A stretch of DNA of 64,000 bases from Minisyncoccota bacterium (GTDB lineage: Bacteria > Patescibacteriota > Minisyncoccia > JAHIHE01 > JAGLIN01), in the NCBI GenBank assembly GCA_023142595.1, contig JAGLJF010000003.1, positions 3,873 to 67,872 of the forward strand. Direction: 5' to 3'. Numbering within the stretch: the first letter of the stretch is position 1; the number at the start of each line of letters is the position of its first letter. Shown here one piece after another: positions 28,586 to 60,371 of this stretch. Below the pieces are notes generated by a model. The model had not been told where the DNA came from. It did no database searches and was given only the letters and a program-made list of their open reading frames with translations. Made by a program: the position numbers and the translations under genes.

Positions 28586-29203
28586 ATGTCTCGGCTATAT
28601 AAGAATAAATTCAAAACTGAATCAACGAGATTGAAAAAATGGGACTATTCACAGAATGGTTTTTATTTTGTGACGATTTGCACGAATAATCATCAGTTGT
28701 TTTTTGGTGATGTAAAAAAATCAGAATCAGAACATTGTCCAATTTTTGAAATGAAAAAATCGCCCATTGGCAAAATCGCCGAAAAATATTGGTTAGAAAT
28801 TCCAAAACATTTTTCAAATGTAAAATTAGATGTATTTGTAATTATGCCAAACCATTTACACGGGGTAATTGAAATTTGTGATGATATTGTGATTGATAAA
28901 AATAAACCGTGCAAACATGTAGAGACGCAGCAATGCTGCGTCTCTACAACAACAAATAATGAATCAAAAACATTTTATAGATTAATTCCAAAATCACTGC
29001 CTGTTATTATTCGCTCATTTAAATCAATTTGTACAAAAACAATAAATCAGAAATTTGATGATAGAAATTTTTCCTGGCAATCGAAATACTATGATCATAT
29101 TATTAGAGATGAAAAATCATTAGACGAAATCAGAAAATATATTATTGATAATCCCGCAAAATGGGATTTGGATAAGAATGTTGTTGAGAATTTTTATAAA
29201 TAG
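28586..29203 (+). mobile_element. Second REP-associated tyrosine transposase (RAYT, IS200-like) carrying its own REP hairpin in-frame
   Basis: HuH motif MPNHLHGVIEI. Catalytic tyrosine region WQSKYYDHIIRDEKSLDEIRKYIIDNP. REP-B copies at 28525, 28919 (inside ORF) and 29241. Confidence 0.65.
28919..28947. repeat. REP hairpin family B, copy 2, located in-frame inside the RAYT ORF (encodes HVETQQCCVSTT)
   Basis: Same palindrome. The ORF remains open through it. Confidence 0.7.
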
Positions 29204-29609: not shown

Positions 29610-31064
29610 ATGGTATCAAATGAATATATCCCAGTAATTGTTTTTGTTGTTTTTGTTGTAATCTCTATAGCTTTTCTGTCTCGTTTGTACAAATGCTATG
29701 GAACAACTCAAAAATTAAAAGCAGAAAGAGAAAAAACGCAAGAAGAAAGAAGAGATATCGAAACCAACATTAGAAGGTCTCTGTCAGAAGGGATCGATAT
29801 TCGTCAGGAAAATGAAGATAACCGAAAGAGGCTTGCCGATCAAATAGATAAATTAAGAATAAAAGAAGTAGCTGAATGGAAAAAAATTATATTAGTAGGA
29901 ATAATAACCGCTTCATTTTTTGTTCTGTCGGTTGTGTTGTTAATTGAATTAATTTTATTTAGCAGCATAGGACAATACAGGCCTTTTATGTTTACATTAA
30001 CAGAAACGACGGTAATTCTGATAATTGTATGGATTATCTACAGAATTATTCTTAGTTCGACAAAAATCACATTAAAAAATAATGGGGTTGTTCTTTACTT
30101 TGATATACCAGACAAACAAGTGGGCGAAGGACCTATTTTTGCATGGTTTAAAGATGTGAGAATACCAGGAACAGATATCATAATTTCTAGAATAATAGAA
30201 ATTGAAAGAAAGGAAATTGTGTTCGATGTTCACAAAGATAAAACAATGTTGGCGGTCTCAGCTGATTCTACACAGCCCTTTTGGCTTGATGGTTATGTTA
30301 CATATAGAATAAAAGATATTGTCCAAACTATAATTACAACAGGAGAACATAGTCTTGATGGAATAAAGGACTATTTTGAAGGAAAAGAACAGGAGGCGTC
30401 TGTTGAAAATGAAGCCGGAGAAAAAGAAAAGATGAATATTAGAATGGGAGGTATTATAGATTTAACTTTCAGATCTTTTGTGAGAAATTTTTTCCGAGAA
30501 GCAGATAATTTTGGTATAAAAGATGGAGACACCGACGAAGTAGTAATCAATAAGGCGATTGGTGTGCAAGAACAACTTAGTAAGTCATTACACAGTCAGT
30601 TCGCATATCTTAAATATTTTGGAATAGAGCTTATGGCAACAGAAGCAACGGACATTAAGCCGTCTCAAGAAGTTGAAAATAGGCTCGTAAAAGCAAGAAC
30701 TAGCGCACAAGATATTGGCATAGCTACAAAAGAAAAAGATGCAGCTGTTGAAACAGGAAAAGTTGGACCTGAATTAATGAACATCTTTGAGAAAGATGCA
30801 AATTTTGTAATAACTCCAGAAATAAAAAGCGTTATAGCTCTCCTGACTATAAATGCTGATGCACTTAAAGGGGTTTTAGAGGGTTCGAACTTAAATATTG
30901 CATTGGTGCCAGCCATTAACAAACTTGCTGATGCAATTGGTGGCGGAAGTCCCACTTCTGCTGATACAAAAGACTTGGTGAATAAAGTTTTAAGCGAGAT
31001 TAAAAATGACCCACAAGGAATAAAAGCTGTTGTAGATCAAATAAAAAAAGCGAAAATGTTATAA
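29610..31064 (+). CDS. Membrane protein with SPFH/band-7-like domain (stomatin/prohibitin/flotillin superfamily), N-terminal coiled-coil and 3-4 TM helices
   Basis: FGIELMATEATDIKPSQEVENRLVKARTSAQDIGIATKEKDAAVETGK resembles the SPFH C-terminal helix region. An upstream beta-rich segment is SPFH-like. Confidence 0.45.
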   Translation: MVSNEYIPVIVFVVFVVISIAFLSRLYKCYGTTQKLKAEREKTQEERRDIETNIRRSLSEGIDIRQENEDNRKRLADQIDKLRIKEVAEWKKIILVGIITASFFVLSVVLLIELILFSSIGQYRPFMFTLTETTVILIIVWIIYRIILSSTKITLKNNGVVLYFDIPDKQVGEGPIFAWFKDVRIPGTDIIISRIIEIERKEIVFDVHKDKTMLAVSADSTQPFWLDGYVTYRIKDIVQTIITTGEHSLDGIKDYFEGKEQEASVENEAGEKEKMNIRMGGIIDLTFRSFVRNFFREADNFGIKDGDTDEVVINKAIGVQEQLSKSLHSQFAYLKYFGIELMATEATDIKPSQEVENRLVKARTSAQDIGIATKEKDAAVETGKVGPELMNIFEKDANFVITPEIKSVIALLTINADALKGVLEGSNLNIALVPAINKLADAIGGGSPTSADTKDLVNKVLSEIKNDPQGIKAVVDQIKKAKML

Positions 31065-32191: not shown

Positions 32192-34492
32192 ATGAACAAA
32201 AAAACAAAAACTTTTCAAAAATTTGCTCTTTTATTTCTCGTTGTTTTAGTTGGAATTAGTTTTCCGCAAAATTATGCTAATGCTGGTGTTGCTGAATTAT
32301 GGGATATAGCGACTGACCCCCTTGGTGTTGGCAAGGCATTGTTAAATATTCTTCAATTGTTAATTTATGGAATAGGACTTCTTCTTCTTGGAATTGTGGC
32401 TATCTTTGTCGAAATTTCTGCTTGGCTTATTGATGTTTTTCTTGACCCCAAAATCTATGTTGGACAACCTGCTACTGCATTTGCTCCTGCTATCCCAGGT
32501 GTTCTAACTTCAAATTCAATTTTAATTGGTTGGACAGTTGTCAGAGATATTTGTAATATGTTTTTTATGTTCTTTCTTCTAATCGTTGCTTTTGGAACAA
32601 TGCTCAGAAGTAAGTCAATAAACATCAAGGCAATTTTGCCAAAAATCATCATTTCTCTATTTTTGATTAATTTCAGTATGGTTTTTGCTTATCTGATCAT
32701 TGACATTAGCCAATTTTTTATGATTGAAATCAGCTCTTGGATGACAGGAGGATTTGCTCTGGCAGCTCAATCTCTTAGTACTATTCCAAACGGATTTAAA
32801 TCAGGTTTTGCTATTTTTGAAAACATTGGTGCCGTGGATACCTTTATGATTGTGAATATCATATTTGCTATTATATTTTCTGTTTGTCTAGTCTTTGTCT
32901 ATCTTTTGCTCGTAGGTTTCTTGCTTATTCGTTTGGTATATTTTGCGGTTCTGATTGTTTTTTCTCCTGTTGCCTTTTTGGGAATTGCTTTTCCAGGTTT
33001 GTCAAAATATTCCTCTCAATGGTGGTCAGAAATTACAAAATGGGCAATTTTTGGTCCAATTTTTATTTTCTTTGTCTATCTTTCAACCACGATGGCAAAC
33101 GAATTAGTTGGAACTGTGTTTGCGGATGTTTCTCCTGCATTTGGCTTTTTTGACAAAATAGCTCTGCTTGTTATCCCAGCTGTAGTCCCGCTTGTAATTT
33201 TGCTAATGGCTCCAAAATATGCATCTGATTCTGGAGTAGCAGGAGCCCAACAACTCGTCGGTGGCAGAGGCGGTCTTGGAAATATTTCAATGGGGTCTTA
33301 TGGTGTGGCGAAATGGGGAGCTGGAAAAACGAAGCAGGCTGGTGCATGGGGTGGCAGAAGAATTGGATATGATTCAAGAAGGATTGGTGATTCAGTTCGT
33401 GGAGGAACAAAAGCATTAGCAGGTAAAATACCTATCAAGCGTGTTAGAGAAAGAATTCAAGGTAAGATAGCGATACAAGAAGTGAATAGAAAGGGCAAAG
33501 ACAGAAAAAATATCGAAGAAAAGAAGTCTGATTTTAAAGAGTTTAATGGCAAAGATGCTATTATTGCAGCAAAGGGAATTGAAGCAAAGAAATTACGAAA
33601 AGGAGAATCGTTAAGCAAGGAAGATGAATCGAAATTTATTGCTCTTATAGAACATGCGGCAGCAAAAGGAGAAAATCTTAGTACTAATTTCTCAGAAGCG
33701 CAACTTGAAATGGCAACCAAACGGGGTGCAGATGTTGATGAAATTGCAAAACATGATCCTGTTGCAGCTGGAACAATGAAACATTCAAAAGATGCTACTA
33801 AATCAGCAGAAGATCATACTGCTGAATATATGCAAGAACACGCTGAATCAGGAGACTGGAAAAAATATAGTGAACACACTAGACGAAATAACTTTGTAGA
33901 TATGGTAGAACATATTGATTCGAAAGATTTGCAAAATCATATCAAAGGTTCAGGTCCAAAAGCAAAGAAGGATTATGAAATTGGTGCTGATCAGATGATG
34001 CAAAAGTTAAAAGAAGAAATTACTGCTAATTTAACTAAAGGAACTCCAGCTGATATTGCGAAGGCTGCAGACTTAGGGAAAGAGCTTCAAAAAGCTCGAA
34101 AGAAAATCAGAAAAGTGACTGGTAATCTTGAAATTTCTGACGCAGAAAGAAATAGTGATGGATATAGAATGAGCGAAGATGCAAGCGGTACAACAACGCC
34201 ATTGGGCCATGGAGAGAAAGCGCCTACTGGTAGTAGTATTCAGTTAAATGCACCACTAATGCAAGAAGCAGTAAAAGTAACTGGAGGAGCTGACTTTAAA
34301 AAACTGACAAGCGAAAGTAAAGTTGCTTATGCGAAACATGCGAACGCAGATAATATTAATAGCTTACGATTGAAAGAGGAGGGTTCAGATGACTTGCAAG
34401 CAGTAGCAGATGAAATAAAGAAACGTCCAACTACCGATCCTGTACATATAGCAGCAGCTTCTCATGAAATATTAGGAAAATATATGACTTAA
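32192..34492 (+). CDS. VirB6/TrbL-like polytopic membrane protein of a type IV secretion-like system, with long K/E-rich hydrophilic C-terminal extension
   Basis: Signal peptide plus about 8 TM helices in the first ~350 aa. Located 1 kb upstream of PrgI-like and VirB4 genes. Confidence 0.4.
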   Translation: MNKKTKTFQKFALLFLVVLVGISFPQNYANAGVAELWDIATDPLGVGKALLNILQLLIYGIGLLLLGIVAIFVEISAWLIDVFLDPKIYVGQPATAFAPAIPGVLTSNSILIGWTVVRDICNMFFMFFLLIVAFGTMLRSKSINIKAILPKIIISLFLINFSMVFAYLIIDISQFFMIEISSWMTGGFALAAQSLSTIPNGFKSGFAIFENIGAVDTFMIVNIIFAIIFSVCLVFVYLLLVGFLLIRLVYFAVLIVFSPVAFLGIAFPGLSKYSSQWWSEITKWAIFGPIFIFFVYLSTTMANELVGTVFADVSPAFGFFDKIALLVIPAVVPLVILLMAPKYASDSGVAGAQQLVGGRGGLGNISMGSYGVAKWGAGKTKQAGAWGGRRIGYDSRRIGDSVRGGTKALAGKIPIKRVRERIQGKIAIQEVNRKGKDRKNIEEKKSDFKEFNGKDAIIAAKGIEAKKLRKGESLSKEDESKFIALIEHAAAKGENLSTNFSEAQLEMATKRGADVDEIAKHDPVAAGTMKHSKDATKSAEDHTAEYMQEHAESGDWKKYSEHTRRNNFVDMVEHIDSKDLQNHIKGSGPKAKKDYEIGADQMMQKLKEEITANLTKGTPADIAKAADLGKELQKARKKIRKVTGNLEISDAERNSDGYRMSEDASGTTTPLGHGEKAPTGSSIQLNAPLMQEAVKVTGGADFKKLTSESKVAYAKHANADNINSLRLKEEGSDDLQAVADEIKKRPTTDPVHIAAASHEILGKYMT

Positions 34493-34504
34493 AAAATTTA
34501 TTTT

Positions 34505-35329
34505 ATGTATAATATTAAGATAATGAGTGAAGAAAAAAACGAAAAAGATAAAAAAAATGATGAGATGATGCGAAAAGTCAGGCTTTTGCCAGATTTTGTT
34601 TATGATGCATTACTGATAAATGAGGGAATTTCAGCAAATTCAGAAATTATTGAAAAGTATGAATTAAATGATGAACAAAAAGACAAAATGTTAGATTTGA
34701 ATTTGAATATTATTTTCAAAGAACTTGCAATTGAAAATTTGTCTGATTCTATTGAACAAAATTTGAAAGTGAACAAAGAAACAGCTTCACAAATTACGCT
34801 TGATCTCTTTTTGAAGAAATTTTATCTAGCAGCCAGTTATTTTCCTGGAATTGAGGATGAGATTTTGAGACTTGGTGGGGAAATACCGAAGGAGAAGCCG
34901 AAAAAATTAGGGGAGCAACTTTTGAAAAGAGAAGAAGAGATGGATAGGATAAAAGAAGAAGAAAAACGAGCAGAAGCCGAAAGAATGGCGGATACGATTA
35001 TTTCAAAATCTGTTGATGAGTTATTGAAAGAATTTCCAATTGTTGGAAATCAACAAATTGGTTCTCAAGAATCAATCACCCTTAAAACAAAACCTGAACC
35101 AATGAAGCCGTTGATAAAATACTGGCTAGAAGATTACAAAGAAAAAATGGGTTATTACAATCATTCAAATATCGAAAGAGTTCAATATGTCTATCACGAC
35201 AAAAACACAAAAAATATGAATGAAGAAGAAAGAAGGCAGTTAAATTTGATTTTAAAATCAGCCGACGAAAAAATCCCCCTCCCATATTCCACAAAAAGCA
35301 AGAAAATTGATTTTTCAAGAATTGAATAA
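34505..35329 (+). CDS. Hypothetical soluble acidic/coiled-coil protein within T4SS-like locus
   Basis: No recognisable motifs. Co-directional, 12-nt gap from the VirB6-like gene. Confidence 0.3.
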   Translation: MYNIKIMSEEKNEKDKKNDEMMRKVRLLPDFVYDALLINEGISANSEIIEKYELNDEQKDKMLDLNLNIIFKELAIENLSDSIEQNLKVNKETASQITLDLFLKKFYLAASYFPGIEDEILRLGGEIPKEKPKKLGEQLLKREEEMDRIKEEEKRAEAERMADTIISKSVDELLKEFPIVGNQQIGSQESITLKTKPEPMKPLIKYWLEDYKEKMGYYNHSNIERVQYVYHDKNTKNMNEEERRQLNLILKSADEKIPLPYSTKSKKIDFSRIE

Positions 35330-35451
35330 ATTTTTAACCTGTCGTAAAGTAAATCATTCGTCTCTAAGAGCCTCTTAAAGGCTCTTAGAGACTGAAGCTA
35401 TCTTACAGCGGGGACAAATAAAACTCAATGATAATCACCTAACAACAACCC

Positions 35452-35895
35452 ATGCAATATAGTGTTCCTCAATTTTTAAACATTGAAGATAAAATTGTTG
35501 GTCCGTTCACGGGCAAACAAGTTCTTTTTCTGATTATGGGATTCGGAGTTCTACTGATTTCTTTTACTTTTTTTAATATGGCATTTTTTGCAATCATTGC
35601 TATTCTGGTTATTCCAATCACCTTAGCTTTTGCTTTTTGGAAACCAAAAGGAATGACAGTTTCACGCCTAATAACAAATATGATCAATTTTCATACCACC
35701 TCTCATCTTTATGTTTGGAGAAGAGAACCAAATCTGAGGATGTATAAAATGACTCAAAGAAAAGTAGCTAAAGATAGCATTGGAGAGAAAAAAGTTTCCA
35801 AAAGAAGAATCAGAGAATTAGCATGGCTGCTTGATACAAGTACTTCTATAGACACTCCTTTCGAAGCAAAAACAAGACCCGATGAGAATATTTAA
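35452..35895 (+). CDS. PrgI-family (VirB3-like) T4SS membrane protein
   Basis: N-terminus MQYSVPQFLNIEDKIVGPFTGKQVLFLIMG followed by two TM helices matches the PrgI/VirB3 pattern. Confidence 0.55.
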   Translation: MQYSVPQFLNIEDKIVGPFTGKQVLFLIMGFGVLLISFTFFNMAFFAIIAILVIPITLAFAFWKPKGMTVSRLITNMINFHTTSHLYVWRREPNLRMYKMTQRKVAKDSIGEKKVSKRRIRELAWLLDTSTSIDTPFEAKTRPDENI

Positions 35896-35985
35896 GCAAA
35901 TTGTTGAATTAAATGTATAAAAAATCTTCTTTATCTTTTTATAAAAATTACGAATAAAAAACTAACAATTTAACAATCTAATTAT

Positions 35986-36657
35986 ATGTCTACACCAGAT
36001 AAACAAAAGAAAAAAGGCTTAAGCACGCAAAAATATCTTGAAATTGCTGAAATAAAAGATGGCGTTGTTATTATGAAAAATGGAAGCATGAGAGCTGTCC
36101 TTATGGTTTCATCAATTAATTTTGCTTTAAAATCAATTGATGAACAAGACGCAACGATTTATCATTTTCAAAGTTTTTTAAATTCTCTTGATTTTTCAAT
36201 CCAAATTGTCGTAAATTCTCGAACCTTGAATCTTGATAATTATTTGCAAATTCTCAAAGATAACGAGAAAAGACAAATGAATGAACTTCTTCGCATGCAA
36301 ACGGCAAGCTACATTGAATATATTCAAGGGCTGGTGAAAATGGCAAATATTGTCAATAAAACATTTTATATAGTTGTTCCATTTTCAGTCTCAGAGTCAA
36401 AAGGAGGCACCATGAAAGCTTTAAAGGGGTCAATAAGTGCTCAAAAACTGATTTCTAACAGAGCTACATTCGAAAAATACAAAGATCAACTTTTTCAAAG
36501 AGTTGATCATGTTGTAGGAAATTTAGGTGGTTCAGGGCTAAAGATGACAATGTTGAATACACAAGAATTAATCGAGCTTTATTATAATTTATATAATCCA
36601 GAAAGTTCTGAAAAGAAAGCCTTGGCAGACATTGAAGACCTTGATTTGGCAATGTAA
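35986..36657 (+). CDS. VirB4/TrbE-family ATPase, N-terminal segment (split gene or pseudogene part 1)
   Basis: YLEIAEIKDGVVIMKNGSMRAVLMVSSINFALKSIDEQDATIYHFQSFLNSLDFSIQIVV matches the conserved VirB4/TrbE N-terminus (dgvv.tkdGsl.a.f.v.G..fe...). Stop, then 37 nt, then the next ORF. Confidence 0.55.
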   Translation: MSTPDKQKKKGLSTQKYLEIAEIKDGVVIMKNGSMRAVLMVSSINFALKSIDEQDATIYHFQSFLNSLDFSIQIVVNSRTLNLDNYLQILKDNEKRQMNELLRMQTASYIEYIQGLVKMANIVNKTFYIVVPFSVSESKGGTMKALKGSISAQKLISNRATFEKYKDQLFQRVDHVVGNLGGSGLKMTMLNTQELIELYYNLYNPESSEKKALADIEDLDLAM

Positions 36658-36696
36658 AAAATTTCTCTATACAAAGTAATTAATAATAAATTATAT

Positions 36697-38517
36697 ATGT
36701 TGAAAAATAAAATTACTAAAAAACAGAAAGTCCAAGCTCCAACTGACAAGTCTGCTCTTTTAGATTCTGAAAAAATGTACCAAAAGGGAATGGCGACTGT
36801 AAAAGATATTATTGCTCCATCAGCTTTCAAAATTGAAAGTGACCATGTGATGATTAATAAAAAACTAGCTACTACCTTTTTTGTTTATGCCTATCCTCGA
36901 TTTCTGCAAACAAATTGGTTTTCTCCAATTATTAATCTTGATACAACATTCGATATTGCAATGTTTATTCATCCACAAAAATCCGCTGATGTTTTGAAAA
37001 GTTTGCTGAAACTAGTTACTCAACTTCAATCTCAAATGTCTATCGAAGAAGAGAAAGGTATGGTTCGAAATCCAATGCTTGAGACTGCATATCAAGACGC
37101 TGAAGGTTTGAGAGACGATCTTCAACAAGGCGTTGAACATTTTTTTCAGTTTGGACTTTATGTGACAATTTATGGAGATACGAAAGAGGAATTGGAAAAA
37201 ATTGAAACAAGCATCGAATCTGTTCTGGAAGCAAAATTAATTTATATGAAATCAGCCATTATGCAAATGGAAGAAGGTTTCAACTCCACTCTTCCTCTTG
37301 GAAACGACAAGTTGATGATTGGAAATAATATGAATACTTCCCCACTCTCAACTGCATTTCCTTTTGTTTCCAGCGATCTGACATCCAATCAAGGAATTTT
37401 ATATGGAATTAATCGACATAATAATAGTTTGATTCTATTTGACAGATTTTCTATGGAAAATGCAAACATGGTCATTTTCGCCAAATCAGGTGCGGGAAAA
37501 AGTTATGCAGTCAAGCTTGAAATTTTGAGAAGTTTGATGATGGAATCTGATGTAATTGTAATTGATCCAGAAGATGAATATAAACATCTTTGTGACACAG
37601 TCGGAGGAACATTTATGAAAATTTCCCTGTCTTCCAGAAATCATATTAACCCTTTTGACTTACCAACTGCTATTGGAGACGAAACTCCAGCAGATGTTCT
37701 TCGAAAAGCCATTTCTGATGTTGCAGGACTTATTCGAGTTATGCTTGGTACAATTACTGCTGAAGAAGATTCAATTTTAGATCGAGCCATCGCAGAAACT
37801 TATGCAATCAAAGATATTACAGCAGAAGCTGATTTTTCAACCCTTGAACCTCCAACAATGTCAGATTTGCAAATGGTTTTGGAAAATATGAGTGGAGCAG
37901 AAAGTCTTTCAACAAGAATTAAAAAATATACCGAAGGAACTTTTGCAGGTTTTTTGAATCACAAAACAAATATTGATGTTGAGTCTGGAATGGTGGTCTT
38001 CAATATCAGGGATATGGAAGAAGAACTCAGGCCAGTTGCAATGTATTTGGTTTTACACTATATTTGGACACTGATTAGATCAAAAACAAAAAAGAGGGTG
38101 ATGGTTGTTGATGAAGCTTGGATTATGATGAAACATGAAGACGCAGCATCATTCCTTTTTGGAATCGCCAAAAGATGCAGAAAATATTATCTCGGGCTGA
38201 CAACAATTACTCAAGATGTGACAGATTTTATGAGTTCAAGATACGGAAAACCGATTGTGACAAACTCATCAATGCAACTTCTTTTGAAACAATCACCAGC
38301 TGCAATCAAGACTATTGTGGATACATTCTATCTTACCGACGAAGAAAAGTTTTTGCTTTTGGAAAGTAACATTGGAGAAGGAATTTTCTTTGCTGGTTCA
38401 AAAAGAGCGGCCATCAAAATTGTGGCTTCATATTCCGAGGATCAAATCATCACTTCCGACCCAGAGCAACTTCTGGAAATTGAAAAAGCAAAAAAAGAAC
38501 TTTCAGAAATGGCATAA
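36697..38517 (+). CDS. VirB4/TrbE/CagE-family T4SS ATPase, main body (Walker A/B)
   Basis: DIIAPSAFKIESDHVMINKKLATTFFVYAYP N-domain. Walker A FAKSGAGKSY. Walker B RVMVVDEAWIMM. Conserved TQ motif. Confidence 0.8.
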   Translation: MLKNKITKKQKVQAPTDKSALLDSEKMYQKGMATVKDIIAPSAFKIESDHVMINKKLATTFFVYAYPRFLQTNWFSPIINLDTTFDIAMFIHPQKSADVLKSLLKLVTQLQSQMSIEEEKGMVRNPMLETAYQDAEGLRDDLQQGVEHFFQFGLYVTIYGDTKEELEKIETSIESVLEAKLIYMKSAIMQMEEGFNSTLPLGNDKLMIGNNMNTSPLSTAFPFVSSDLTSNQGILYGINRHNNSLILFDRFSMENANMVIFAKSGAGKSYAVKLEILRSLMMESDVIVIDPEDEYKHLCDTVGGTFMKISLSSRNHINPFDLPTAIGDETPADVLRKAISDVAGLIRVMLGTITAEEDSILDRAIAETYAIKDITAEADFSTLEPPTMSDLQMVLENMSGAESLSTRIKKYTEGTFAGFLNHKTNIDVESGMVVFNIRDMEEELRPVAMYLVLHYIWTLIRSKTKKRVMVVDEAWIMMKHEDAASFLFGIAKRCRKYYLGLTTITQDVTDFMSSRYGKPIVTNSSMQLLLKQSPAAIKTIVDTFYLTDEEKFLLLESNIGEGIFFAGSKRAAIKIVASYSEDQIITSDPEQLLEIEKAKKELSEMA

Positions 38518-39272
38518 ACCTGAACTCTTATTATTTGTCATTCTGAATTCATTTCAGAATCTTAGTTAAATTAGATTTGAATCTATACTTTTTTACATAA
38601 TACTTTTATTTATAAAAAACATATATATTCTATAAATATCATACAGGTGCTAGTATATTCATCTGTCATCTCAGAATTTATTCCGAAACGATAGTGCAGG
38701 AATAAATGTCTGAGATCCAGTTTGTTTCGTTTATTAGAATCATTGTATAAACCGTTTTTGCATCATTAATTATTTTCTTTTCTTATAAAACCTTACAAAA
38801 TATATTATTTATTGAGACTTACTGGATTCCAGATAAATTTTTCTTTTGACTCTTAATTGTTAGATTGTCCAGCGTTGTATATACTTTTATAATTACCATT
38901 AGTATCAATTGTCATCCTCAGCTTGACTGAGGATCCAGAATAGACTGAGATAAATTTTAATTTAGGCTTGATACAGCCAAAAGATAATAATCCTAGATTC
39001 CCGCAGGAGTTTATGCTGAATTAATTTCAGTGCGGGAATGACAAATAAGTTTAATGTAATGTATATAACTATTTTTAAAAAGTATAGGAAGCGCTGAAAA
39101 ATCTTACATATTAATAGTAAAATTTTCTGAAATGACAATATTTTGCCACTAAATTAATAAACATTTATACTATAAATGGTTTATTAATTCACTGACGTAA
39201 TTTTATCAACAAATTAAGTACCATTTATAAAAATAGCAACCCAAAGATATTATATAAAAGCAAAAGAGCAAT

Positions 39273-40256
39273 ATGAGTGTTTCATCTAAAAACAATCAAG
39301 AAAACAAAAAGAGGAATAACAATTCTTCTTCTTTTGATAATGATATCTCAAACTCAAAAACGAAATCTGATTCGACTCAATCTAAAGATTCAAACAATAT
39401 ATTGAAGCAAAAATTAATCGAAAAAATAAAAAAAGGCGCAAAAGAAAAGATGGAAAAAATTGAAGATTCTGAAAAGGAAGATGATTATCAAGCTTTAAAT
39501 AAATCAGAATCTAAGAAATCTGGAGCTTCACGACTGGATTCTCCATCAAAATCAAATTTATTGCCTCAGAATCGGAGAGTTGACAATAATAAAGATAATG
39601 AACTAAACAGAATCAAAAATGAATCACAAAGCGATGTGCAAATAGAAAAAATAAGAAAAGAGGCGCAAGAAAAGTCTGAAAAAGAAGCTGAAGAGGCATT
39701 AAAAAATATTCAAGATAGAAAAGCAAGATTTATAATTAAACTAGCAGGAAAACATGCAGAACAAGCTGCTTATACTATTGCAGCAAAAATGGCAAAAATG
39801 GCAGATGATGGCGGTATGATGGCATTTTTTGTGATGGCATTGAGCCTATTTCTCGCTATTATAAAAGACATAATTGACATTGGCGAAGTAGGACTTTTAG
39901 CATTTCTTGCTACTATTGTGGCAATTCCCGTAGTGATAGCAATTGAGAGCGTTTTTTGGTTTATAAATTTTGGCATAACGCTAATAAATATATATTTTTG
40001 GACCATTCTTTTGGGAGGTAGTCATAAAAAATGGTTTTGGAAAAGAATCTATAAAACAATTCTATTGTCTGGACTTGATTTTCTGCCAGGCATTGATGCA
40101 ATTCCATTTATGACATTAATGGTTCTTTGGAATATTTCTGATTATTATAAAGCAAGAAAAGAAGCAAAAGCGGATTTGAAAAAATTTATGATTGATTATA
40201 AGAGTACGGGAAAAGTCAATAAAGCAACTGCTGAAAAATATGTTGGATCTATATAA
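39273..40256 (+). CDS. Hypothetical protein: S/N/K-rich low-complexity N-terminus, C-terminal multi-TM region
   Basis: ORF with TM cluster FFVMALSLFLAIIKDII...WFINFGITLINIYFWTILLGG. Within the T4SS-like neighbourhood. Confidence 0.3.
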   Translation: MSVSSKNNQENKKRNNNSSSFDNDISNSKTKSDSTQSKDSNNILKQKLIEKIKKGAKEKMEKIEDSEKEDDYQALNKSESKKSGASRLDSPSKSNLLPQNRRVDNNKDNELNRIKNESQSDVQIEKIRKEAQEKSEKEAEEALKNIQDRKARFIIKLAGKHAEQAAYTIAAKMAKMADDGGMMAFFVMALSLFLAIIKDIIDIGEVGLLAFLATIVAIPVVIAIESVFWFINFGITLINIYFWTILLGGSHKKWFWKRIYKTILLSGLDFLPGIDAIPFMTLMVLWNISDYYKARKEAKADLKKFMIDYKSTGKVNKATAEKYVGSI

Positions 40257-40470
40257 TAATTTGAAAATTATAATTTTATTTTCTACATAATTTATTTTGG
40301 TTTATTATTACTGTAGATTAGTATATAATAAAAATAAGTATGTTTAAAATAAAAGAGATTCTTATGACCAATTGTCATTCTGAGAGAACGCGATTGTCAT
40401 TCTGAGTGAAACGAAGAATCTCAAAATAAAGTTTATCAATAAATTTCAATAAACCATAATTTTTAAAAAT

Positions 40471-41565
40471 ATGAAAATAAAAAATTATTTAATTGGTGCA
40501 TTCCTCTTGGTGAGTTCTTTCGCTTTTGTCGGCATTGTTAGTGCTGCTACAACTTGGGATCCGCTAGTGAAAATTCCAGGAATTCCATCGACGGGAATTA
40601 ATCTCTCAACATATTTGGTTGGACTTTATAATTTTATGCTAAGCGTTGTCGGAATTGTAGCAGTGATGATGTTAATCGTAGCTGGTATGAGATATATCAC
40701 CGCAGCTGGAAATGCGACTTCGGTCACTGACGCCAAAAGCATCGCAGGAAATGCAGTTGTTGGATTGCTTCTGGCTTTGCTTTCTTTTGTTATCCTCAAA
40801 ACAATCAACCCAGATGTCTTATATCTCAAAAAACCAGGCAGTGGTTTCGCTGGTACTACTGGCACCCCAGTAGATTTGGGTAGTTGCGGTTCTTATGATA
40901 GCGCTGGTGTTTGTACCTGTGCTAACAATGAAATAATAACACCTGCTGTTGCTAATGCAGCTGCTTGCAACACTGCATGCGAAGCCTCTCCAGAGCTTTG
41001 TCGTGCCGCTCCAAAAAATGTTTGTTTACTAAAAGCATCAGAGCCTGGAGATACTAACTGCTATTGTATTAACAAAAACACAATTCCAATAGGAACAGCA
41101 ACTAATTGCCAAGATGCTTGTGCTGTAAGTGATTGTGTAGTGGCGGATTTAAGAGTAGGACCATCGCCTAATCCAAAAGATAAATCAGCTTCTGTTAAAA
41201 TAGATGAAAATGTCTATTTAGACGCAAGATCTTATTCAGTAGATTATTCCTATAATAATTTAAATAGATTTGTTGATTACGACGATCCTTCTTTTGACAA
41301 TGGAATTGATAGATATGAAATGTGTTTTGACGAAGAAAACCCTGCTGCTTGTATCACTTTAAATCACGGCTGCTCTGATGGTGCATCTTGTAGTTGGGTT
41401 ACAGGTGCTCTCGGTTGGATTGGTTCTACATTTCTTGCTTGGGCACCATGTGGAACAGATGTAACATCATATGGCGGTGGTGGTACAAAAAAAATAAAAC
41501 TTTATGTGAGATCAACAAATGGTTGTATTATAGCAACAGATGAAGTTATTGTGAATGTTAACTAA
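40471..41565 (+). CDS. TrbC/VirB2-like pilin domain fused to a ~250-aa cysteine-rich C-terminal extension
   Basis: Signal peptide, then two hydrophobic helices separated by TAAGNATSVTDAKS (classic VirB2/TrbC topology), then a domain with >20 Cys (CGSYDSAGVCTCANNE...CNTACEASPELCRAAPKNVC...). Confidence 0.5.
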   Translation: MKIKNYLIGAFLLVSSFAFVGIVSAATTWDPLVKIPGIPSTGINLSTYLVGLYNFMLSVVGIVAVMMLIVAGMRYITAAGNATSVTDAKSIAGNAVVGLLLALLSFVILKTINPDVLYLKKPGSGFAGTTGTPVDLGSCGSYDSAGVCTCANNEIITPAVANAAACNTACEASPELCRAAPKNVCLLKASEPGDTNCYCINKNTIPIGTATNCQDACAVSDCVVADLRVGPSPNPKDKSASVKIDENVYLDARSYSVDYSYNNLNRFVDYDDPSFDNGIDRYEMCFDEENPAACITLNHGCSDGASCSWVTGALGWIGSTFLAWAPCGTDVTSYGGGGTKKIKLYVRSTNGCIIATDEVIVNVN

Positions 41566-41592
41566 CAAAAAAATAAGAAGGTTTAATCCTTC

Positions 41593-42243
41593 TCATGTTA
41601 ATTTTACAACTAAAAAATTTATTTCTTTGGGATGTAAATTTGTTCGACTTGTTTGTGGATTATCTTTTCCAAAAACAAAATAAGTTCTTTCTGCTGGATT
41701 AACATTTAATCCGCCACTAGAAATACCTAATTTTGCTAATGTTCCTTCGTCTTTTAAGCCTTCTATACTTATTCCAATGTGAATAAGTCTTGATCCATGA
41801 TTTTCAGCATAACCTCTTATCCCAGTATCTTTATATTCCGTAATCGTAACATAGCATTCTTTATATAAAGGATGTTCAATTGTTTTCGGAAGTTCATTTA
41901 TCGCAACAAGACCATTTAACCCACCAAAACTGTCAACGATTTGCTTAAATCGGATACCTTGATTATAAAAATCAAGCTCTGACTGTGTTGTTATAGATAT
42001 AGTCGGATTTACAGAATCTGCATCTTCTGTTTTAGCCTCTTCTTTGTTAGCATTCAATTCTGGATTTAATCCCAATTTTTCGGTTTGCTGAACTTCTGAT
42101 TGTTCATCTCTTGTATCACTAGCAATTCCTATTAGCGTCATTGCTACAATTAAGATTATTGCAAGCATTAATCCAATTATAACAAATTTTGAACCTCCCC
42201 TTAAAGGATTATTTACATTTGCATTGTCTGGCATATCTATCAC
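41593..42243 (-). CDS. Hypothetical N-terminally membrane-anchored extracytoplasmic protein
   Basis: SD AAGGAGTGA. TM at residues ~20-42. Confidence 0.35.
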   Translation of the reverse strand: MIDMPDNANVNNPLRGGSKFVIIGLMLAIILIVAMTLIGIASDTRDEQSEVQQTEKLGLNPELNANKEEAKTEDADSVNPTISITTQSELDFYNQGIRFKQIVDSFGGLNGLVAINELPKTIEHPLYKECYVTITEYKDTGIRGYAENHGSRLIHIGISIEGLKDEGTLAKLGISSGGLNVNPAERTYFVFGKDNPQTSRTNLHPKEINFLVVKLT

Positions 42244-42970: not shown

Positions 42971-44038
42971 CTATTGAATCCCTTTGAACATCGGCATTCC
43001 ATTGTCAGGACTAGTCGGTACATAAATTGTTCCTTCTCTGTCTTTGAGTTCTCTGATATATAAGTAGTTCAAATATTCAGCAGTCAAACTTTCATTAATT
43101 GTCTTTTGAGCATCTCTTTGTCCTTCTGCCTCAATTCTTTTTCGATCTGCTTCTTTCTTTTCTTTTTCTAAAACAAAATCATACCTTTGACTTTCTTGCT
43201 GTGCTTGAAGTTTTTCTTGAATGCTGGCATCAAGCTTTTCTGGAAGAATTACATTTCGAAGAAGAACTTGCTCAATGGCAATTCCTCTTGGCTCAATGTT
43301 GTCTGCCATTTTTTGCCTAATGGTATTGATTATTTCATCTCTTTTGTCTGAGTAGATTGATTTTGAATCATATCCTGCTACAACTTCTCGAATTGCGCTT
43401 CTGATTTCAGGTCTAATGATTTTTTCCTGATAATTTATTCCCAATTCTTTATATACATCAGAAGCACTGTCTTCTACAAGATGATAAAAAACAGTAATAT
43501 CAAGTTTGACGGTTAGCCCTTCGCTTGTCAGAGCATCAATGGAATCGTCTCCAATTTTTTCGCCCTCTCCTTGTACAACACTCATAGTGTATTGTTCGGT
43601 TCTAATGCTTAGTTTTGTTATCTGAGCGAGAGGATTGATTATATGAAGTCCAGATTTTACTTCAGCATCTTTTACTTTCCCAAACAAATGATAAACCCCT
43701 GTTTCTCCTGCAGGAATAATGACAATGGAATTTGCAAGAACGATTAGAGATAAGATAATCACTATAACTGTACTTGTTGTTTTTTTATCCATAAATTTTG
43801 AATTTAGTTTATTAAAAAATTGATTTGAATTATTTGAAGAAAAAAATTGTTTGCCATCTTTCATTCCAGAAAAATTGAGATCAATCCCCTTTTTTCTCGA
43901 TTCTTCTTTAATGGCAAGAAATACAGGAAGAAGAAAAACTGCTCCAAAAATTAACCAGAAGATTAGTGATGGTTTGAATATTAATAAAAATATAAATATC
44001 CAAATTATTGTTTTTGTTAATTGTTCTTTGTTTTGCAT
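42971..44038 (-). CDS. SPFH/band-7 family protein (prohibitin/HflC-like), N-terminal TM
   Basis: Full-length SPFH similarity: IPAGETGVYHLFGKV..., EQVLLRNVILPEKLDASIQEKLQAQQESQR, coiled-coil tail. Confidence 0.8.
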   Translation of the reverse strand: MQNKEQLTKTIIWIFIFLLIFKPSLIFWLIFGAVFLLPVFLAIKEESRKKGIDLNFSGMKDGKQFFSSNNSNQFFNKLNSKFMDKKTTSTVIVIILSLIVLANSIVIIPAGETGVYHLFGKVKDAEVKSGLHIINPLAQITKLSIRTEQYTMSVVQGEGEKIGDDSIDALTSEGLTVKLDITVFYHLVEDSASDVYKELGINYQEKIIRPEIRSAIREVVAGYDSKSIYSDKRDEIINTIRQKMADNIEPRGIAIEQVLLRNVILPEKLDASIQEKLQAQQESQRYDFVLEKEKKEADRKRIEAEGQRDAQKTINESLTAEYLNYLYIRELKDREGTIYVPTSPDNGMPMFKGIQ

Positions 44039-44526: not shown

Positions 44527-44811
44527 TTAATCTATATTCAAGTCAGCAAATCCAGGATTTTTACTTTTTATTAAGTTTATTTTCCACGCTCTGTGCCAAT
44601 TTTTAAGTTGTTTTTCTCTTTTAATTGCAGAAACAACATCACTTGTCTGTTCAAAATAAACTAATTTTTTTAAATTATATTTTTCAGAAAAACCTTTTAC
44701 TAGTTTATTTTTATGTTCATAAACTCTTCTTTTTAAATCATTTGTCACACCAATATACAGGGCTGTATCAGTAAAATTCATCATAATATACACATAATAC
44801 GATTTTGACAT
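44527..44811 (-). CDS. GIY-YIG nuclease-domain small protein
   Basis: YYVYIMMNFTDTALYIGVTNDLKRRVYEHK is a GIY-YIG motif. 94 aa. Sits in a nest of MITE copies. Confidence 0.7.
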   Translation of the reverse strand: MSKSYYVYIMMNFTDTALYIGVTNDLKRRVYEHKNKLVKGFSEKYNLKKLVYFEQTSDVVSAIKREKQLKNWHRAWKINLIKSKNPGFADLNID

Positions 44812-59336: not shown

Positions 59337-60371
59337 TTATTTATTTTTAATATATTTCCCTTTTGTCTCAGGAAATAAAATATTAATAATTTCCTTGGCC
59401 ACATTTCTTGATTTTCCAATTGCGGGAAAATGATGCATACGCAAACCAGGCGACGGGTTTAATTCAATTATTACGTAACTATTTTTTGTCGGTTTTTCTG
59501 AAATATCTTTATTAATCATTATATCAATTCCTCCATAAGCAAGTCCTGGTATTGCTTGAATTGTCTTCACGGCAATCATTTTTAGTTCAGGATGAACTTG
59601 ATCTGTAACGTCAATACTATCTCCACCTGTCGAAAGATTTGAATTTTTTCTAAGATAAATTTTTTTGTCAAAGGGTAGAATACTTTCCATTTCCTTTTTT
59701 TGCTCCTTGAGATATTGTTTTATTCTGTTATCTATTTTAATTTTTGTTAAAGGACACATATGCCCTTCACCTCTTCTTGGGTCTTGATTTTTGATTTTTA
59801 TCAATTCTCTAATCGAATGTATCCCATTTCCAACAACATTAGCAGGATCTCTTTGTGCTACTGCGAATACTTTGTTTCGCCCAGCAATAAATCTAAACTC
59901 TTTTCCACTAAATTCCTTTTCCACTAAAACATAATTATTTTTTTTCAAAATACAATTAATCGCCTTTTCGCAATTGTTTTTGTTGTTTATTCCAATAAAA
60001 ACTAAATCCCCATGAACACCATCAAAAGGTTTTATTACTATTGGATATTTAATTTTATCTATAAATTTATATACGTCTTCAATGTTTTTTTTGTTAAAAA
60101 GTTTTCCTTTGACGACACTTATTTTTACTCGTGTTAATAATTTTTTTGTCAGAGATTTGTTTTCCACTGCATAAGTCGCGCAAACTGTTGATTTCGAAAT
60201 ATTTGACCCCAAAATATATTCATAATGATTTTTATAAATTAATTCCAGAAAAGCCATCTCCTTTTGATAATTGTTAATATGATTTATTTTTATACCCCTG
60301 CTTATCGCTTCTTCAGCAAGAATCTTACTACTAATCATATTTATGGTTTTTGGTATTTTGGTATTTTTCAT
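59337..60371 (-). CDS. ATP-grasp ligase, cyanophycin-synthetase N-terminal-domain-like (standalone), paralog 1
   Basis: C-terminal IIELNPSPGLRMHHFPAIGKSRNVAKEIINILF resembles the CphA ATP-grasp tail (PGLRMH...G.PR.VA). No Mur-ligase domain. Confidence 0.55.
   Translation of the reverse strand: MKNTKIPKTINMISSKILAEEAISRGIKINHINNYQKEMAFLELIYKNHYEYILGSNISKSTVCATYAVENKSLTKKLLTRVKISVVKGKLFNKKNIEDVYKFIDKIKYPIVIKPFDGVHGDLVFIGINNKNNCEKAINCILKKNNYVLVEKEFSGKEFRFIAGRNKVFAVAQRDPANVVGNGIHSIRELIKIKNQDPRRGEGHMCPLTKIKIDNRIKQYLKEQKKEMESILPFDKKIYLRKNSNLSTGGDSIDVTDQVHPELKMIAVKTIQAIPGLAYGGIDIMINKDISEKPTKNSYVIIELNPSPGLRMHHFPAIGKSRNVAKEIINILFPETKGKYIKNK

What the first reader, a model, noticed from the sequence alone, without database searches (positions are those of the whole stretch)
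40471..41565. VirB2/TrbC-like pilin fused to a large cysteine-rich ectodomain
After a signal peptide the first ~110 aa have the classic two-helix VirB2/TrbC pilin topology. The remaining ~250 aa contain more than 20 cysteines in CxC/CxxC-rich arrangements (CGSYDSAGVCTCANNE…CNTACEASPELCRAAPKNVCLL…CYCINKN…CQDACAVSDC…). A pilin subunit carrying a disulfide-rich adhesin-like module is unusual and could be the tip or adhesin of the T4SS-like pilus.
Basis: seen in the sequence. Interest (0 to 1): 0.6.

Follow-up and report, generated by a model that had tools for sequence, protein, structure and literature searches.

The report
T4SS pilin fused to cysteine-rich ectodomain
This is a real, conserved gene at the end of the type IV secretion operon of an ultrasmall (Patescibacteria) bacterium: a pilin-type membrane hairpin joined to a fast-evolving, cysteine-rich, Ig-like surface domain, which makes it a candidate for the so-far missing host-contact part of that machine.

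Summary
The ORF 40471-41565 (+, 364 aa) is real and identical to a "hypothetical protein" of a Ca. Pacebacteria MAG. It has 18 cysteines, not more than 20. They form CxC and CxxxC motifs, not CxxC, and all lie at residues 139-352.

Residues 1-125 are a signal peptide plus a two-helix hairpin. The hairpin belongs to Pfam PF18895 (T4SS_pilin), the Patescibacteria "VirB2-like" pilin family. Homology to classical TrbC/VirB2 was tested and not shown.

The ectodomain has two homologous six-Cys modules (139-177, 185-222). They have no Pfam match and no match to a solved structure. In 1.84 billion representative proteins they occur only fused to this pilin module. A PKD/Ig-like beta-sandwich follows (227-364).

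More than 100 homologues keep this architecture, so it is not an assembly artefact. In at least 17 loci from related genomes the gene follows VirB6-like, 274-aa, PrgI, TrsD, VirB4 and usually a 327-aa-type membrane protein. The pilin module is 69% conserved, the Cys modules 27% and the distal domain 21%. The distal domain is swapped between near-identical operons.

Most likely it is a modular T4SS pilin that displays an adhesin, which is inferred, not shown. It is a new variant of a known kind; interest 0.55.

The parts
40471..41565 (+). Whole gene: modular (long) T4SS pilin, 364 aa plus stop codon
   Evidence: ORF list. 100% identical to NCBI MAG protein KAI57_00430, Ca. Pacebacteria.
40471..40545 (+). 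Sec-type signal peptide, residues 1-25 (MKIKNYLIGAFLLVSSFAFVGIVSA|A)
   Evidence: Hydropathy and the VSA motif read from the sequence. Modelled as helix 4-22. No lipobox Cys and no type IV prepilin G|F motif.
40546..40608 (+). Conserved extracellular N-terminal segment of the mature protein, residues 26-46 (PLVxIPG motif)
   Evidence: P31, V33, P36 and G37 are invariant or nearly invariant in the family.
40609..40800 (+). Pilin hairpin, residues 47-110: TM helix 1, short loop (RYITAAGN...DAK), TM helix 2. This is the PF18895 T4SS_pilin region.
   Evidence: Pfam match to residues 46-111. AF2 helices 45-77 and 82-111 with pLDDT 83-89. HMM of five short pilins gives E 4e-13. hhalign to short pilins gives 98.7% probability.
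40801..40851 (+). Neck, residues 111-127: invariant N113-P114-D115-x-L117 and P122 (KTINPDVLYLKKPGSGF), then a flexible linker
   Evidence: Invariant columns. The same INPD motif closes 101 of 120 short PF18895 pilins, which then end after a median of 16 residues. pLDDT is below 50 at residues 117-126.
40885..41001 (+). Six-Cys module 1, residues 139-177: C-x8-CxC-x15-CxxxC-x6-C
   Evidence: Cys positions. pLDDT 80-94, with a strand-strand-helix unit. Cys columns are invariant.
41023..41136 (+). Six-Cys module 2, residues 185-222: C-x11-CxC-x13-CxxxC-x4-C. It is homologous to module 1.
   Evidence: hhalign of module 1 against module 2 gives 96% probability, E 4.5e-9. Five Cys are invariant and the sixth is variable.
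41149..41562 (+). Distal beta-sandwich (PKD/Ig-like), residues 227-364, with a poorly modelled Cys-bearing insert at 291-329
   Evidence: AF2 strands. Best Foldseek match is the ColG PKD domain 2y72, E 3e-3, TM(target) 0.67. BLAST relatives are only P0118 and P0055, not the closest homologues.
41573..41596 (.). Hairpin between the convergent stop codons; a possible bidirectional terminator
   Evidence: Terminator-like scan. The number of such sites is no more than chance predicts, so this is weak.
39273..40256 (+). Conserved upstream neighbour, 327 aa: low-complexity N-terminal half and a polytopic membrane C-terminal half. Function unknown.
   Evidence: Homologues lie at the same position in most related loci, at 25-76% identity. 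No Pfam or PDB match.
36697..38517 (+). VirB4-type ATPase
   Evidence: NCBIfam conju_CD1110 E 5.8e-109; Pfam P-loop_TraG.
35986..36657 (+). TrsD/TraC-like protein (VirB4 N-terminal domain encoded as a separate gene)
   Evidence: NCBIfam TrsD and VirB4_plasma. PF26593 TraC-like in the orthologues.
35452..35895 (+). PrgI / VirB3-like protein
   Evidence: Pfam PF12666, E 2.8e-9.
34505..35329 (+). Conserved 274-aa protein of the cassette; function unknown
   Evidence: 43-77% identical orthologues at the same position.
32192..34492 (+). Polytopic membrane protein, 766 aa. Its position and topology match the VirB6-like component of the Patescibacteria T4SS.
   Evidence: Conserved first gene of the cassette. 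Many hydrophobic segments in the sequence. No Pfam hit, so the VirB6 assignment is by position and by the literature (PMC12102498), not tested here.

Best explanation
The gene encodes a modular T4SS pilin.

Shown here: a Sec signal peptide, a PF18895 two-helix pilin hairpin, and a conserved INPDVLY neck. After the neck come two tandem six-cysteine modules that occur only in this family, then a PKD/Ig-like beta-sandwich. The gene is the last in a conserved chromosomal Patescibacteria (Paceibacteria) T4SS cassette: VirB6-like, 274-aa protein, PrgI/VirB3, TrsD, VirB4, 327-aa membrane protein, long pilin.

Inferred:
1. After Sec export and signal-peptide cleavage, the hairpin sits in the membrane with both ends outside. 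The 240-aa C-terminal part is therefore extracytoplasmic.
2. Each six-Cys module is stapled by about three disulfides, with the CxC strand bonded to the CxxxC helix and a third bond closing the module. The two modules form a stiff stalk.
3. The hairpin is recruited by the VirB6/VirB4 platform in the way VirB2-type pilins are. The ectodomain then ends up on the outside of the T4SS surface structure.
4. The variable distal beta-sandwich binds the host cell surface.

Several observations point to a low-copy nucleating or tip subunit, filling the place that VirB5 holds in diderm systems, rather than the bulk subunit. It is single-copy and encoded in the operon. Its hairpin is far more conserved than the short pilins. 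Some relatives also carry arrays of 4-5 short pilins.
For: Architecture and reality:
- The ORF is real and matches a database entry exactly.
- More than 100 homologues from independent assemblies keep the same contiguous architecture.

Pilin module:
- PF18895 is hit by the query (E 7.6e-5) and by 109 of 109 relatives (best 5.6e-13).
- An HMM of five short pilins gives E 4e-13, and hhalign gives 98.7% probability.
- 1023 mostly short PF18895 relatives were found.
- The INPD motif marks the normal C-terminal end of short pilins, so the ectodomain is a C-terminal accretion at an external end.

Context:
- The same gene order occurs in at least 17 loci from related genomes.
- Short-pilin arrays lie about 8 kb away in L003, L004 and L005.

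Ectodomain:
- 18 Cys, P = 3e-12; 11 Cys columns are invariant.
- The two modules are homologous.
- The module profile finds only 55 clusters in 1.84e9 proteins. All 55 are pilin fusions or N-terminally truncated fragments.
- The distal domain is PKD/Ig-like.
- Relatives insert Big_5 or Big_3_5 Ig domains into the stalk.

Evolutionary pattern typical of host-contact proteins:
- Mean pairwise identity is 69% for the pilin module, 27% for the Cys modules and 21% for the distal domain.
- In L014 VirB4 is 97% and the pilin module 95% identical to the window's, yet the distal domain is unrelated. The query's distal domain recurs instead in P0055, whose pilin module is only 51% identical.

Literature:
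- Patescibacteria T4SS have VirB2-like pilins. No adhesin was detected in the genomic survey, and VirB5 is not among the components listed.
- The T4SS and its pilin array are essential in S. epibionticum, and their function is unknown (PMC12102498, PMC12857230, PMC11665869).
Against: - No PF18895 protein has been shown to polymerise, so 'pilus' is itself a hypothesis in the field (PMC12857230).
- Homology to true VirB2/TrbC is not demonstrable for this protein.
- The query's PF18895 score (23.1 bits) is below Pfam's gathering cut-off (26.6).
- No short pilin gene lies in this 64-kb window. In this genome the long pilin may therefore be the only pilin, which would argue against a tip-only role.
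- No disulfide-forming enzyme was identified in the window; only CxxC motifs were screened.
- The distal-domain model is weak at residues 291-329, and the best Foldseek E-value is only 3e-3.
- Binding to a host is pure inference.
Confidence: 0.5

Rival explanations
1. It is a non-polymerising, membrane-anchored T4SS surface component. The pilin-like hairpin only anchors the protein in the membrane, perhaps docked on the VirB6-like protein or on the 327-aa neighbour. The Cys-rich/Ig ectodomain spans the thin cell wall as a fixed adhesin or channel cap. This would be functionally like the cell-wall-anchored adhesins (PrgB type) of monoderm conjugation systems.
For: - Monoderm MPF-FATA systems, from which the Patescibacteria T4SS derives, have no pilus and rely on surface adhesins (PMC12102498).
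- VirB2 homology is not demonstrable.
- The hairpin is very strongly conserved (69%), which would fit a fixed protein-protein contact in the membrane.
- No short pilins occur in the window.
Against: - The hairpin is clearly homologous to the short 100-185-aa proteins that occur in hypervariable arrays and have no other domain. A mere anchor would not need that family.
- There is no LPXTG or other wall-anchor motif in the sequence.
Confidence: 0.25
2. It is the major, bulk subunit of a decorated filament. Every subunit carries the 240-aa ectodomain, giving a thick, sheathed pilus.
For: - It is the only pilin gene in the operon and in the 64-kb window.
- In most related loci no short pilin lies within +/-10 kb.
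- The C-terminus of VirB2-type pilins lies on the outer surface of the filament (established for F and T pili; my own knowledge, not tested here), so a C-terminal domain is topologically allowed.
Against: - A 25-kDa domain on every subunit of a tightly packed VirB2-type lattice is sterically demanding (my own estimate, not computed).
- Relatives with the same operon also keep arrays of short pilins, which would more naturally be the bulk subunits.
Confidence: 0.12
3. It is a propilin. The invariant INPDVLY-x-K-x-PG neck is a processing site. Cleavage there would leave a roughly 90-100-aa mature pilin and release a soluble Cys-rich protein. The analogy is the C-terminal trimming of RP4 TrbC before cyclisation.
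For: - The neck is invariant across the family.
- The neck coincides with the natural C-terminal end of short pilins.
- C-terminal processing of TrbC-type propilins is established (my own knowledge).
Against: - The INPD motif is equally conserved in short pilins, which have only 5-25 residues after it. It is therefore more likely structural than a cleavage signal.
- No TraF-like or other dedicated peptidase was found among the cassette genes.
- A 240-aa disulfide-rich, domain-shuffled module is not a typical propeptide.
Confidence: 0.1
4. It is an artefact: two genes (a short pilin and a secreted Cys-rich protein) joined by a sequencing or assembly error.
For: None beyond the general possibility in MAG assemblies.
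Against: - The same uninterrupted architecture is seen in more than 100 sequence clusters from NCBI, ENA, JGI and Logan assemblies.
- It is also seen in 20 GTDB species representatives.
- The Cys module never occurs without the pilin module, apart from N-terminally truncated fragments.
Confidence: 0.01

Closest known systems
Patescibacteria 'VirB2-like' T4SS pilins (Pfam PF18895 T4SS_pilin), e.g. the essential pilin array of Southlakia epibionticum ML1 (PMC12102498, PMC12857230)
   Same: - The same family of signal peptide plus two-helix hairpin.
- The same loop motif Y-I/L-T-A-A-G-N...A-K, and the same INPD end as many short members.
- Encoded next to virB4 in a chromosomal MPF-FATA-like cluster.
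   Different: - Typical members are 100-185 aa with no further domain; this one carries a 240-aa ectodomain.
- It is single-copy in the operon rather than in an array.
- Its hairpin is 69% conserved, whereas arrayed pilins average about 25% identity (PMC12102498).
Classical VirB2/TrbC/TraA conjugative pilins of diderm T4SS (Pfam PF04956)
   Same: - Size and topology of the pilin module, and cleavable signal peptide.
- Association with VirB3, VirB4 and VirB6 homologues.
- A few Patescibacteria short pilins hit both PF04956 and PF18895.
   Different: - No significant sequence or profile similarity for this protein.
- I know of no classical VirB2 with a folded C-terminal ectodomain (my own knowledge, plus no hit in the literature searches).
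- The host here is a monoderm.
VirB5/TraC-type pilus-tip adhesins of diderm T4SS
   Same: The proposed role: the first subunit on the VirB6 platform, exposed at the distal end, mediating contact (model summarised in PMC12857230).
   Different: - No sequence similarity; no VirB5 family appeared in the Pfam or NCBIfam scans.
- VirB5 is a soluble helical protein, not a pilin fusion.
- The analogy is functional only and is untested.
Modular type IV pilins of type IV pili, i.e. a pilin module fused to a functional module (e.g. Streptococcus sanguinis PilB with a vWA-like module; my own knowledge)
   Same: The design principle: a polymerisable N-terminal pilin module carrying a C-terminal adhesive module on the filament surface.
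   Different: - An unrelated machinery (T4P, not T4SS) and an unrelated pilin fold.
- No class III prepilin signal here; the sequence has a Sec AXA site.
PKD / bacterial Ig-like domains of surface proteins (e.g. ColG PKD domain, PDB 2y72)
   Same: The distal domain is predicted as a beta-sandwich with its best structural matches to PKD domains. Relatives carry Big_5 or Big_3_5 inserts.
   Different: - No Pfam PKD or Big hit for the query itself.
- It contains 6 Cys and a roughly 40-residue low-confidence insert.

Membership tests
Pfam PF18895 T4SS_pilin (Patescibacteria VirB2-like pilins) | Match to the family HMM at or above the curated cut-off | tested here: inconclusive
   The query scores 23.1 bits, E 7.6e-5, below the gathering score of 26.6. 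All 109 aligned relatives match at E <= 0.01, best 5.6e-13. Divergent modular relatives score 30-46 bits, above the cut-off.
Pfam PF18895 T4SS_pilin (Patescibacteria VirB2-like pilins) | Homology to bona fide short members of the family | tested here: met
   An HMM of five short pilins from L003 against the query gives E 4e-13. hhalign of the long family against short pilins gives 98.7% probability, E 2e-16, over 78 columns. A profile search returns 1023 relatives, most with PF18895 on record.
Pfam PF18895 T4SS_pilin (Patescibacteria VirB2-like pilins) | Signal peptide followed by two transmembrane helices joined by a short loop | tested here: met
   Hydropathy profile; AF2 helices 4-22, 45-77 and 82-111.
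Pfam PF18895 T4SS_pilin (Patescibacteria VirB2-like pilins) | Encoded near virB4 and other T4SS genes | tested here: met
   The gene lies two genes downstream of VirB4 in the window and in at least 17 related loci.
TrbC/VirB2 pilins (Pfam PF04956) | Match to the TrbC/VirB2 HMM or profile | tested here: not met
   No PF04956 hit for the query at E <= 1. Only 1 of 109 relatives hits it, at E 1.1e-3. hhalign against a profile of 7 genuine VirB2/TrbC proteins (L007-L013) gives 1% probability, E 0.05.
TrbC/VirB2 pilins (Pfam PF04956) | Assembly into an extracellular helical filament with bound phospholipid | not testable with these tools
   This needs cryo-EM or biochemistry. It has not been shown for any PF18895 protein (PMC12857230).
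VirB5-type tip adhesin | Sequence membership in the VirB5/TraC family | tested here: not met
   No such family appears among the Pfam or NCBIfam hits of the protein or its neighbours.
PKD / Ig-like beta-sandwich domains | Beta-sandwich fold superposable on PKD or Ig domains | tested here: inconclusive
   Best Foldseek hit is 2y72 (ColG PKD), E 3e-3, TM(target) 0.67; there were no hits at E <= 1e-3. Model pLDDT is 60-90, with residues 291-329 below 50. No Pfam hit.
Known small disulfide-rich domains (EGF, LDL-A, CS-alpha/beta defensin-like, Dickkopf and others) | HMM match or fold match of the six-Cys modules | tested here: not met
Type IV pilins (T4P, class III signal peptide) | Prepilin-peptidase site (G|F/M) followed by a hydrophobic N-terminal helix | tested here: not met
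   The sequence shows a Sec-type AXA site (VSA|A) and no G|F motif.

The most novel reading that the evidence does not exclude
The long pilin is the first modular VirB2-class pilin. It would nucleate the Patescibacteria T4SS filament on the VirB6-like platform and remain at its tip, replacing the missing VirB5. Its cassette-shuffled distal domain would be the determinant of which host cell the epibiont can attach to and exploit. The six-Cys module would be a new disulfide-stapled stalk fold found only in this context.
Probability: 0.25. Interest if true: 0.75.

Novelty: new variant of a known kind. Interest (0 to 1): 0.55.

Why it matters
The T4SS of Patescibacteria is widespread and chromosomal. 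It is essential for epibiotic growth in the one species tested, and its function is unknown (PMC11665869, PMC12857230). The published genomic survey found VirB2-like pilins but explicitly no adhesin, and VirB5 is not among the components it lists (PMC12102498).

This gene is a conserved, operon-encoded pilin that carries a fast-evolving, domain-shuffled, disulfide-rich ectodomain. That makes it a concrete candidate for the host-recognition element.

It would give a protein handle for testing three things:
- whether these monoderm T4SS build a surface filament (antibodies or tags);
- what such a filament touches (recombinant ectodomain binding);
- whether distal-domain type predicts host range.

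It also shows that PF18895 pilins tolerate large C-terminal, and in other lineages N-terminal, cargo domains. This is a design principle so far described for type IV pili but not for T4SS pilins.

Tried and rejected
1. Homology of the hairpin to classical VirB2. I fetched seven annotated VirB2/TrbC genes from plasmids and ran hhalign. The result was not significant, so I do not file the protein under PF04956.

2. Sequence search of PDB with the family profile. There were no hits at E <= 10.

4. Single-sequence search with the ectodomain alone. It returned only 4 hits, because the word index needs shared 5-mers. It was superseded by the profile search.

5. The search for related loci with the Cys-module alignment (A3) and the broad pilin alignment (A4). 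It worked with the narrower alignment A5.

6. Search for other pilin genes in the window. None was found with the long-family HMM or the short-pilin HMM.

7. Function of the 327-aa and 766-aa neighbours. Pfam, NCBIfam and PDB sequence searches gave nothing informative.

8. The CPR 'Pam' pilus paper. It describes an unrelated Ig-fold donor-strand system and is not relevant here.

9. Fusion artefact. Rejected.

10. CS-alpha/beta-like reading of the CxC/CxxxC motifs. I considered it, but the motif order is reversed and there is no fold match, so it remains only a remark on the likely disulfide stapling.
Full report
**1. Observation**

The window holds an ATG-initiated ORF at 40471..41565 (+) of 364 aa. 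It is 100% identical to NCBI protein KAI57_00430, a 'hypothetical protein' of a Candidatus Pacebacteria MAG.

The N-terminus is a Sec-type signal peptide, residues 1-25, ending VSA|A. Two hydrophobic helices follow at about 47-72 and 91-110. AlphaFold2 models them as a hairpin, helices 45-77 and 82-111, with pLDDT 83-89.

The protein has 18 cysteines, not more than 20. All lie between residues 139 and 352. The local motifs are two CxC and two CxxxC; there is no CxxC. Cysteine makes up 7.5% of the ectodomain, against 0.82% in the other 55 ORFs of the window (binomial P = 3e-12).

**2. The pilin module**

*Family membership.* Pfam gives PF18895 (T4SS_pilin) for residues 46-111 at E 7.6e-5. The score is 23.1 bits, just below the 26.6-bit gathering score. 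All 109 aligned relatives hit PF18895, best 5.6e-13.

Related genomes carry arrays of short pilins of 103-122 aa. An HMM of five of them finds the query at E 4e-13. A profile-profile comparison of the long family with the short pilins gives 98.7% probability and E 2e-16. A profile of the hairpin retrieves 1023 proteins. The 120 listed are 101-185 aa long, and most are on record as PF18895.

*The INPD neck.* The invariant motif I-N-P-D-V-L just after helix 2 is also present in 101 of those 120 short pilins. These then end after a median of 16 further residues. The long protein is therefore an INPD-type pilin with a large accretion at its external C-terminus.

*Relation to classical VirB2.* This was tested and not shown:
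- There is no PF04956 hit for the query.
- Only 1 of 109 relatives hits PF04956, at E 1.1e-3.
- hhalign against seven genuine VirB2/TrbC proteins fetched from plasmids gives 1% probability.

'VirB2-like' therefore rests on topology, size, context and the naming used in the literature (PMC12102498).

**3. The ectodomain**

*Two six-Cys modules.* Residues 139-177 and 185-222 each follow the pattern C-x(8-11)-CxC-x(13-15)-CxxxC-x(4-6)-C. The family consensus is C..G..CxCxDG...CNxxC...C. The two modules are homologous to each other (hhalign local alignment, 96% probability, E 4.5e-9). Eleven of the twelve Cys columns are invariant. Relatives carry one, two or three such modules.

AF2 predicts each module as a strand-strand-helix unit. 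pLDDT is 80-94 in the full model and 70 in the isolated model.

*No known relative of the module.*
- No Pfam family covers it in any member.
- No PDB sequence matches the family profile.
- A profile of the module, searched against 1.84 billion representative proteins, finds only 55 clusters.
- Every one of those is a pilin fusion or an N-terminally truncated fragment of one.

*Distal domain.* Residues 227-364 fold as a beta-sandwich. The best structural matches are PKD domains (2y72, E 3e-3, TM 0.67). Residues 291-329 form a low-confidence insert that carries Cys.

**4. Context**

The gene is the last of a cassette:
- a 766-aa polytopic membrane protein, VirB6-like by position;
- a 274-aa protein;
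- PrgI/VirB3;
- TrsD/TraC-like protein;
- VirB4;
- a 327-aa membrane protein;
- the long pilin.

The same order, with orthologous proteins, is found in four loci fetched through homologues. It is also found in GTDB species representatives. In all, at least 17 loci have VirB4 upstream of the long pilin.

KsgA (RrnaAD) lies upstream in the window and in L005, as reported for Patescibacteria T4SS regions (PMC12102498).

In L003, L004 and L005 an array of 4-5 short pilins lies about 8 kb downstream, next to a XerC-like integrase and a DUF4012 protein. No short pilin lies in this 64-kb window.

**5. Evolutionary pattern**

Mean pairwise identity within the family is:

| Region | Mean pairwise identity |
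|---|---|
| Pilin module | 69% |
| Cys modules | 27% |
| Distal domain | 21% |

The closest genome is L014. Its identities to the window are:

| Component | Identity to window |
|---|---|
| VirB4 | 97% |
| TrsD | 95% |
| PrgI | 91% |
| Pilin module | 95% |
| 327-aa protein | 76% |
| VirB6-like protein | 54% |

Yet its distal domain is unrelated to the window's. The query's distal domain recurs at 38% identity in P0055. The pilin module of P0055 is only 51% identical to the query's, and it has a Big_5 Ig domain inserted in its stalk.

A conserved machine-facing module, a stalk of variable length and a shuffled distal domain are the signature of host-contact proteins.

**6. Broader phenomenon**

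Other PF18895 proteins carry different cargo:
- P0110 and P0111 have Cys-rich domains on both sides of the hairpin.
- P0113 to P0116 have an unclassified C-terminal domain of about 250 aa, and P0116 also has an N-terminal Cys-rich domain.
- P0117 has yet another C-terminal domain.
- P0085 has an N-terminal Ig-like domain.

The pilin hairpin thus behaves as a carrier module.

**7. Mechanism**

What is shown: the architecture, family membership, operon membership and evolutionary pattern.

What is inferred:
- Sec export and an N-out/C-out topology, so that the ectodomain is extracytoplasmic.
- Three disulfides per module, with the CxC strand stapled to the CxxxC helix.
- Recruitment of the hairpin by the VirB6/VirB4 platform.
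- Display of the distal domain for host binding.

I favour a low-copy nucleating or tip role analogous to VirB5. VirB5 is not among the components reported for these systems, and no adhesin was detected (PMC12102498, PMC12857230). The reasons are that the gene is single-copy, is encoded in the operon and has a conserved hairpin, and that relatives also keep short-pilin arrays.

The rivals are:
- a fixed membrane-anchored adhesin;
- the bulk subunit of a decorated filament;
- a propilin cleaved at the neck.

The artefact reading is excluded.

**8. Novelty**

Known: PF18895 pilins and their link to Patescibacteria T4SS. NCBI already labels a few long family members 'pilin'.

Apparently not described: a pilin fused to a cysteine-rich or Ig-like ectodomain. 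I found no paper describing one. The main survey treated VirB2 homologues as small proteins and reported no adhesins. The literature tool covers open-access papers only, so this is absence in what I could search, not proof.

I rate it a new variant of a known kind, with a family-specific new Cys module.

Interest is moderate to fairly high. It bears on an open question, namely what the essential Patescibacteria T4SS does and what it touches. But function is wholly inferred, and the lineage is largely uncultivated.

Noticed in passing
window, 24 sites, e.g. 1283, 23155, 24258, 31881, 32044, 38536, 40373, 40395, 42692, 44324, 44865, 45134, 50237, 57403: A dispersed intergenic hairpin repeat, TGTCATTCTGAA-n5-TTCAGAATCT(GTCG), occurs 24 times at <= 1 mismatch in the 12-mer, against 0.48 expected. 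Two variant copies lie in the 214-bp spacer just upstream of the pilin gene. It looks like a REP-type element.
   Followed up: partly
window 28586-29203 (+) and 2478-3014 (-): The 205-aa ORF has a weak IS200-like Y1 transposase match (PF01797, E 1e-4). The 178-aa ORF was not scanned against any family library; its opening residues merely looked similar by eye. Together with the hairpin repeats this suggests REP-associated tyrosine transposases (RAYT). This was not tested further.
   Followed up: no
window 38518-39272, 40257-40470 and 44527-44811 (-); L001 7736-7930 and 9675-9869; L006 4955-5245: The spacers inside the T4SS cassette are unusually long here (755 bp and 214 bp, against about 25 bp in L003 and L005). 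In relatives the equivalent spacers hold small GIY-YIG ORFs. A 94-aa ORF whose start resembles GIY-YIG proteins by eye (not scanned) lies at 44527-44811. This suggests repeated invasion of the cassette spacers by small mobile elements.
   Followed up: no
L003 19127-20956, L004 17784-19598, L005 18952-20444: Arrays of 4-5 short (103-122 aa) PF18895 pilins, some also weakly hitting TrbC, lie about 8 kb downstream of the long pilin. They sit between a XerC-like integrase and a DUF4012 protein. No such array is present in the window.
   Followed up: partly
P0110, P0111, P0113-P0117, P0085 (proteins): Other modular PF18895 pilins exist with different cargo. These include Cys-rich domains on both sides of the hairpin (one with a weak Dickkopf_N-like hit), unclassified C-terminal domains of about 250 aa, and N-terminal Ig-like domains. 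Some are labelled Saccharibacteria.
   Followed up: partly
L014 (JAGLSJ010000007.1) versus window 32192-41565: Within one near-identical operon pair there is a steep identity gradient: VirB4 97%, TrsD 95%, PrgI 91%, 327-aa protein 76%, VirB6-like 54%. The pilin's distal domain is replaced outright. The exposed parts of the machine evolve much faster than the cytoplasmic ones.
   Followed up: partly
window 29610-31064 (+) and 42971-44038 (-): Two SPFH/Band-7 membrane proteins flank the T4SS cassette, one weak (E 7.6e-5) and one strong (E 6.9e-33). In the four loci compared with the window's proteins by BLAST (L001, L003, L005, L006) neither found a match within 10 kb, so the pairing may be coincidental.
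   Followed up: no
window 35986-36657 and 36697-38517: VirB4 is split. The N-terminal TrsD/TraC-like domain is a separate 223-aa ORF ahead of the 606-aa ATPase. The split is conserved in all relatives, and TrsD is reported alongside VirB4 in the Patescibacteria T4SS (PMC12102498).
   Followed up: yes
window 17947-18483 / 18497-19030 (-) and 59337-60371 / 60392-61411 (-): Two pairs of adjacent, similar-length ORFs. The first pair has similar N-termini (MNEILK...), which suggests tandem paralogues. They were not examined.
   Followed up: no
L016 (labelled Omnitrophota), L029 (labelled Methanosarcinaceae archaeon), P0138 (labelled Ca. Methanoperedens): Long or short Patescibacteria-type pilin genes sit on contigs binned to unrelated organisms. 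This is probably mis-binning, though an association with archaeal hosts cannot be excluded.
   Followed up: no
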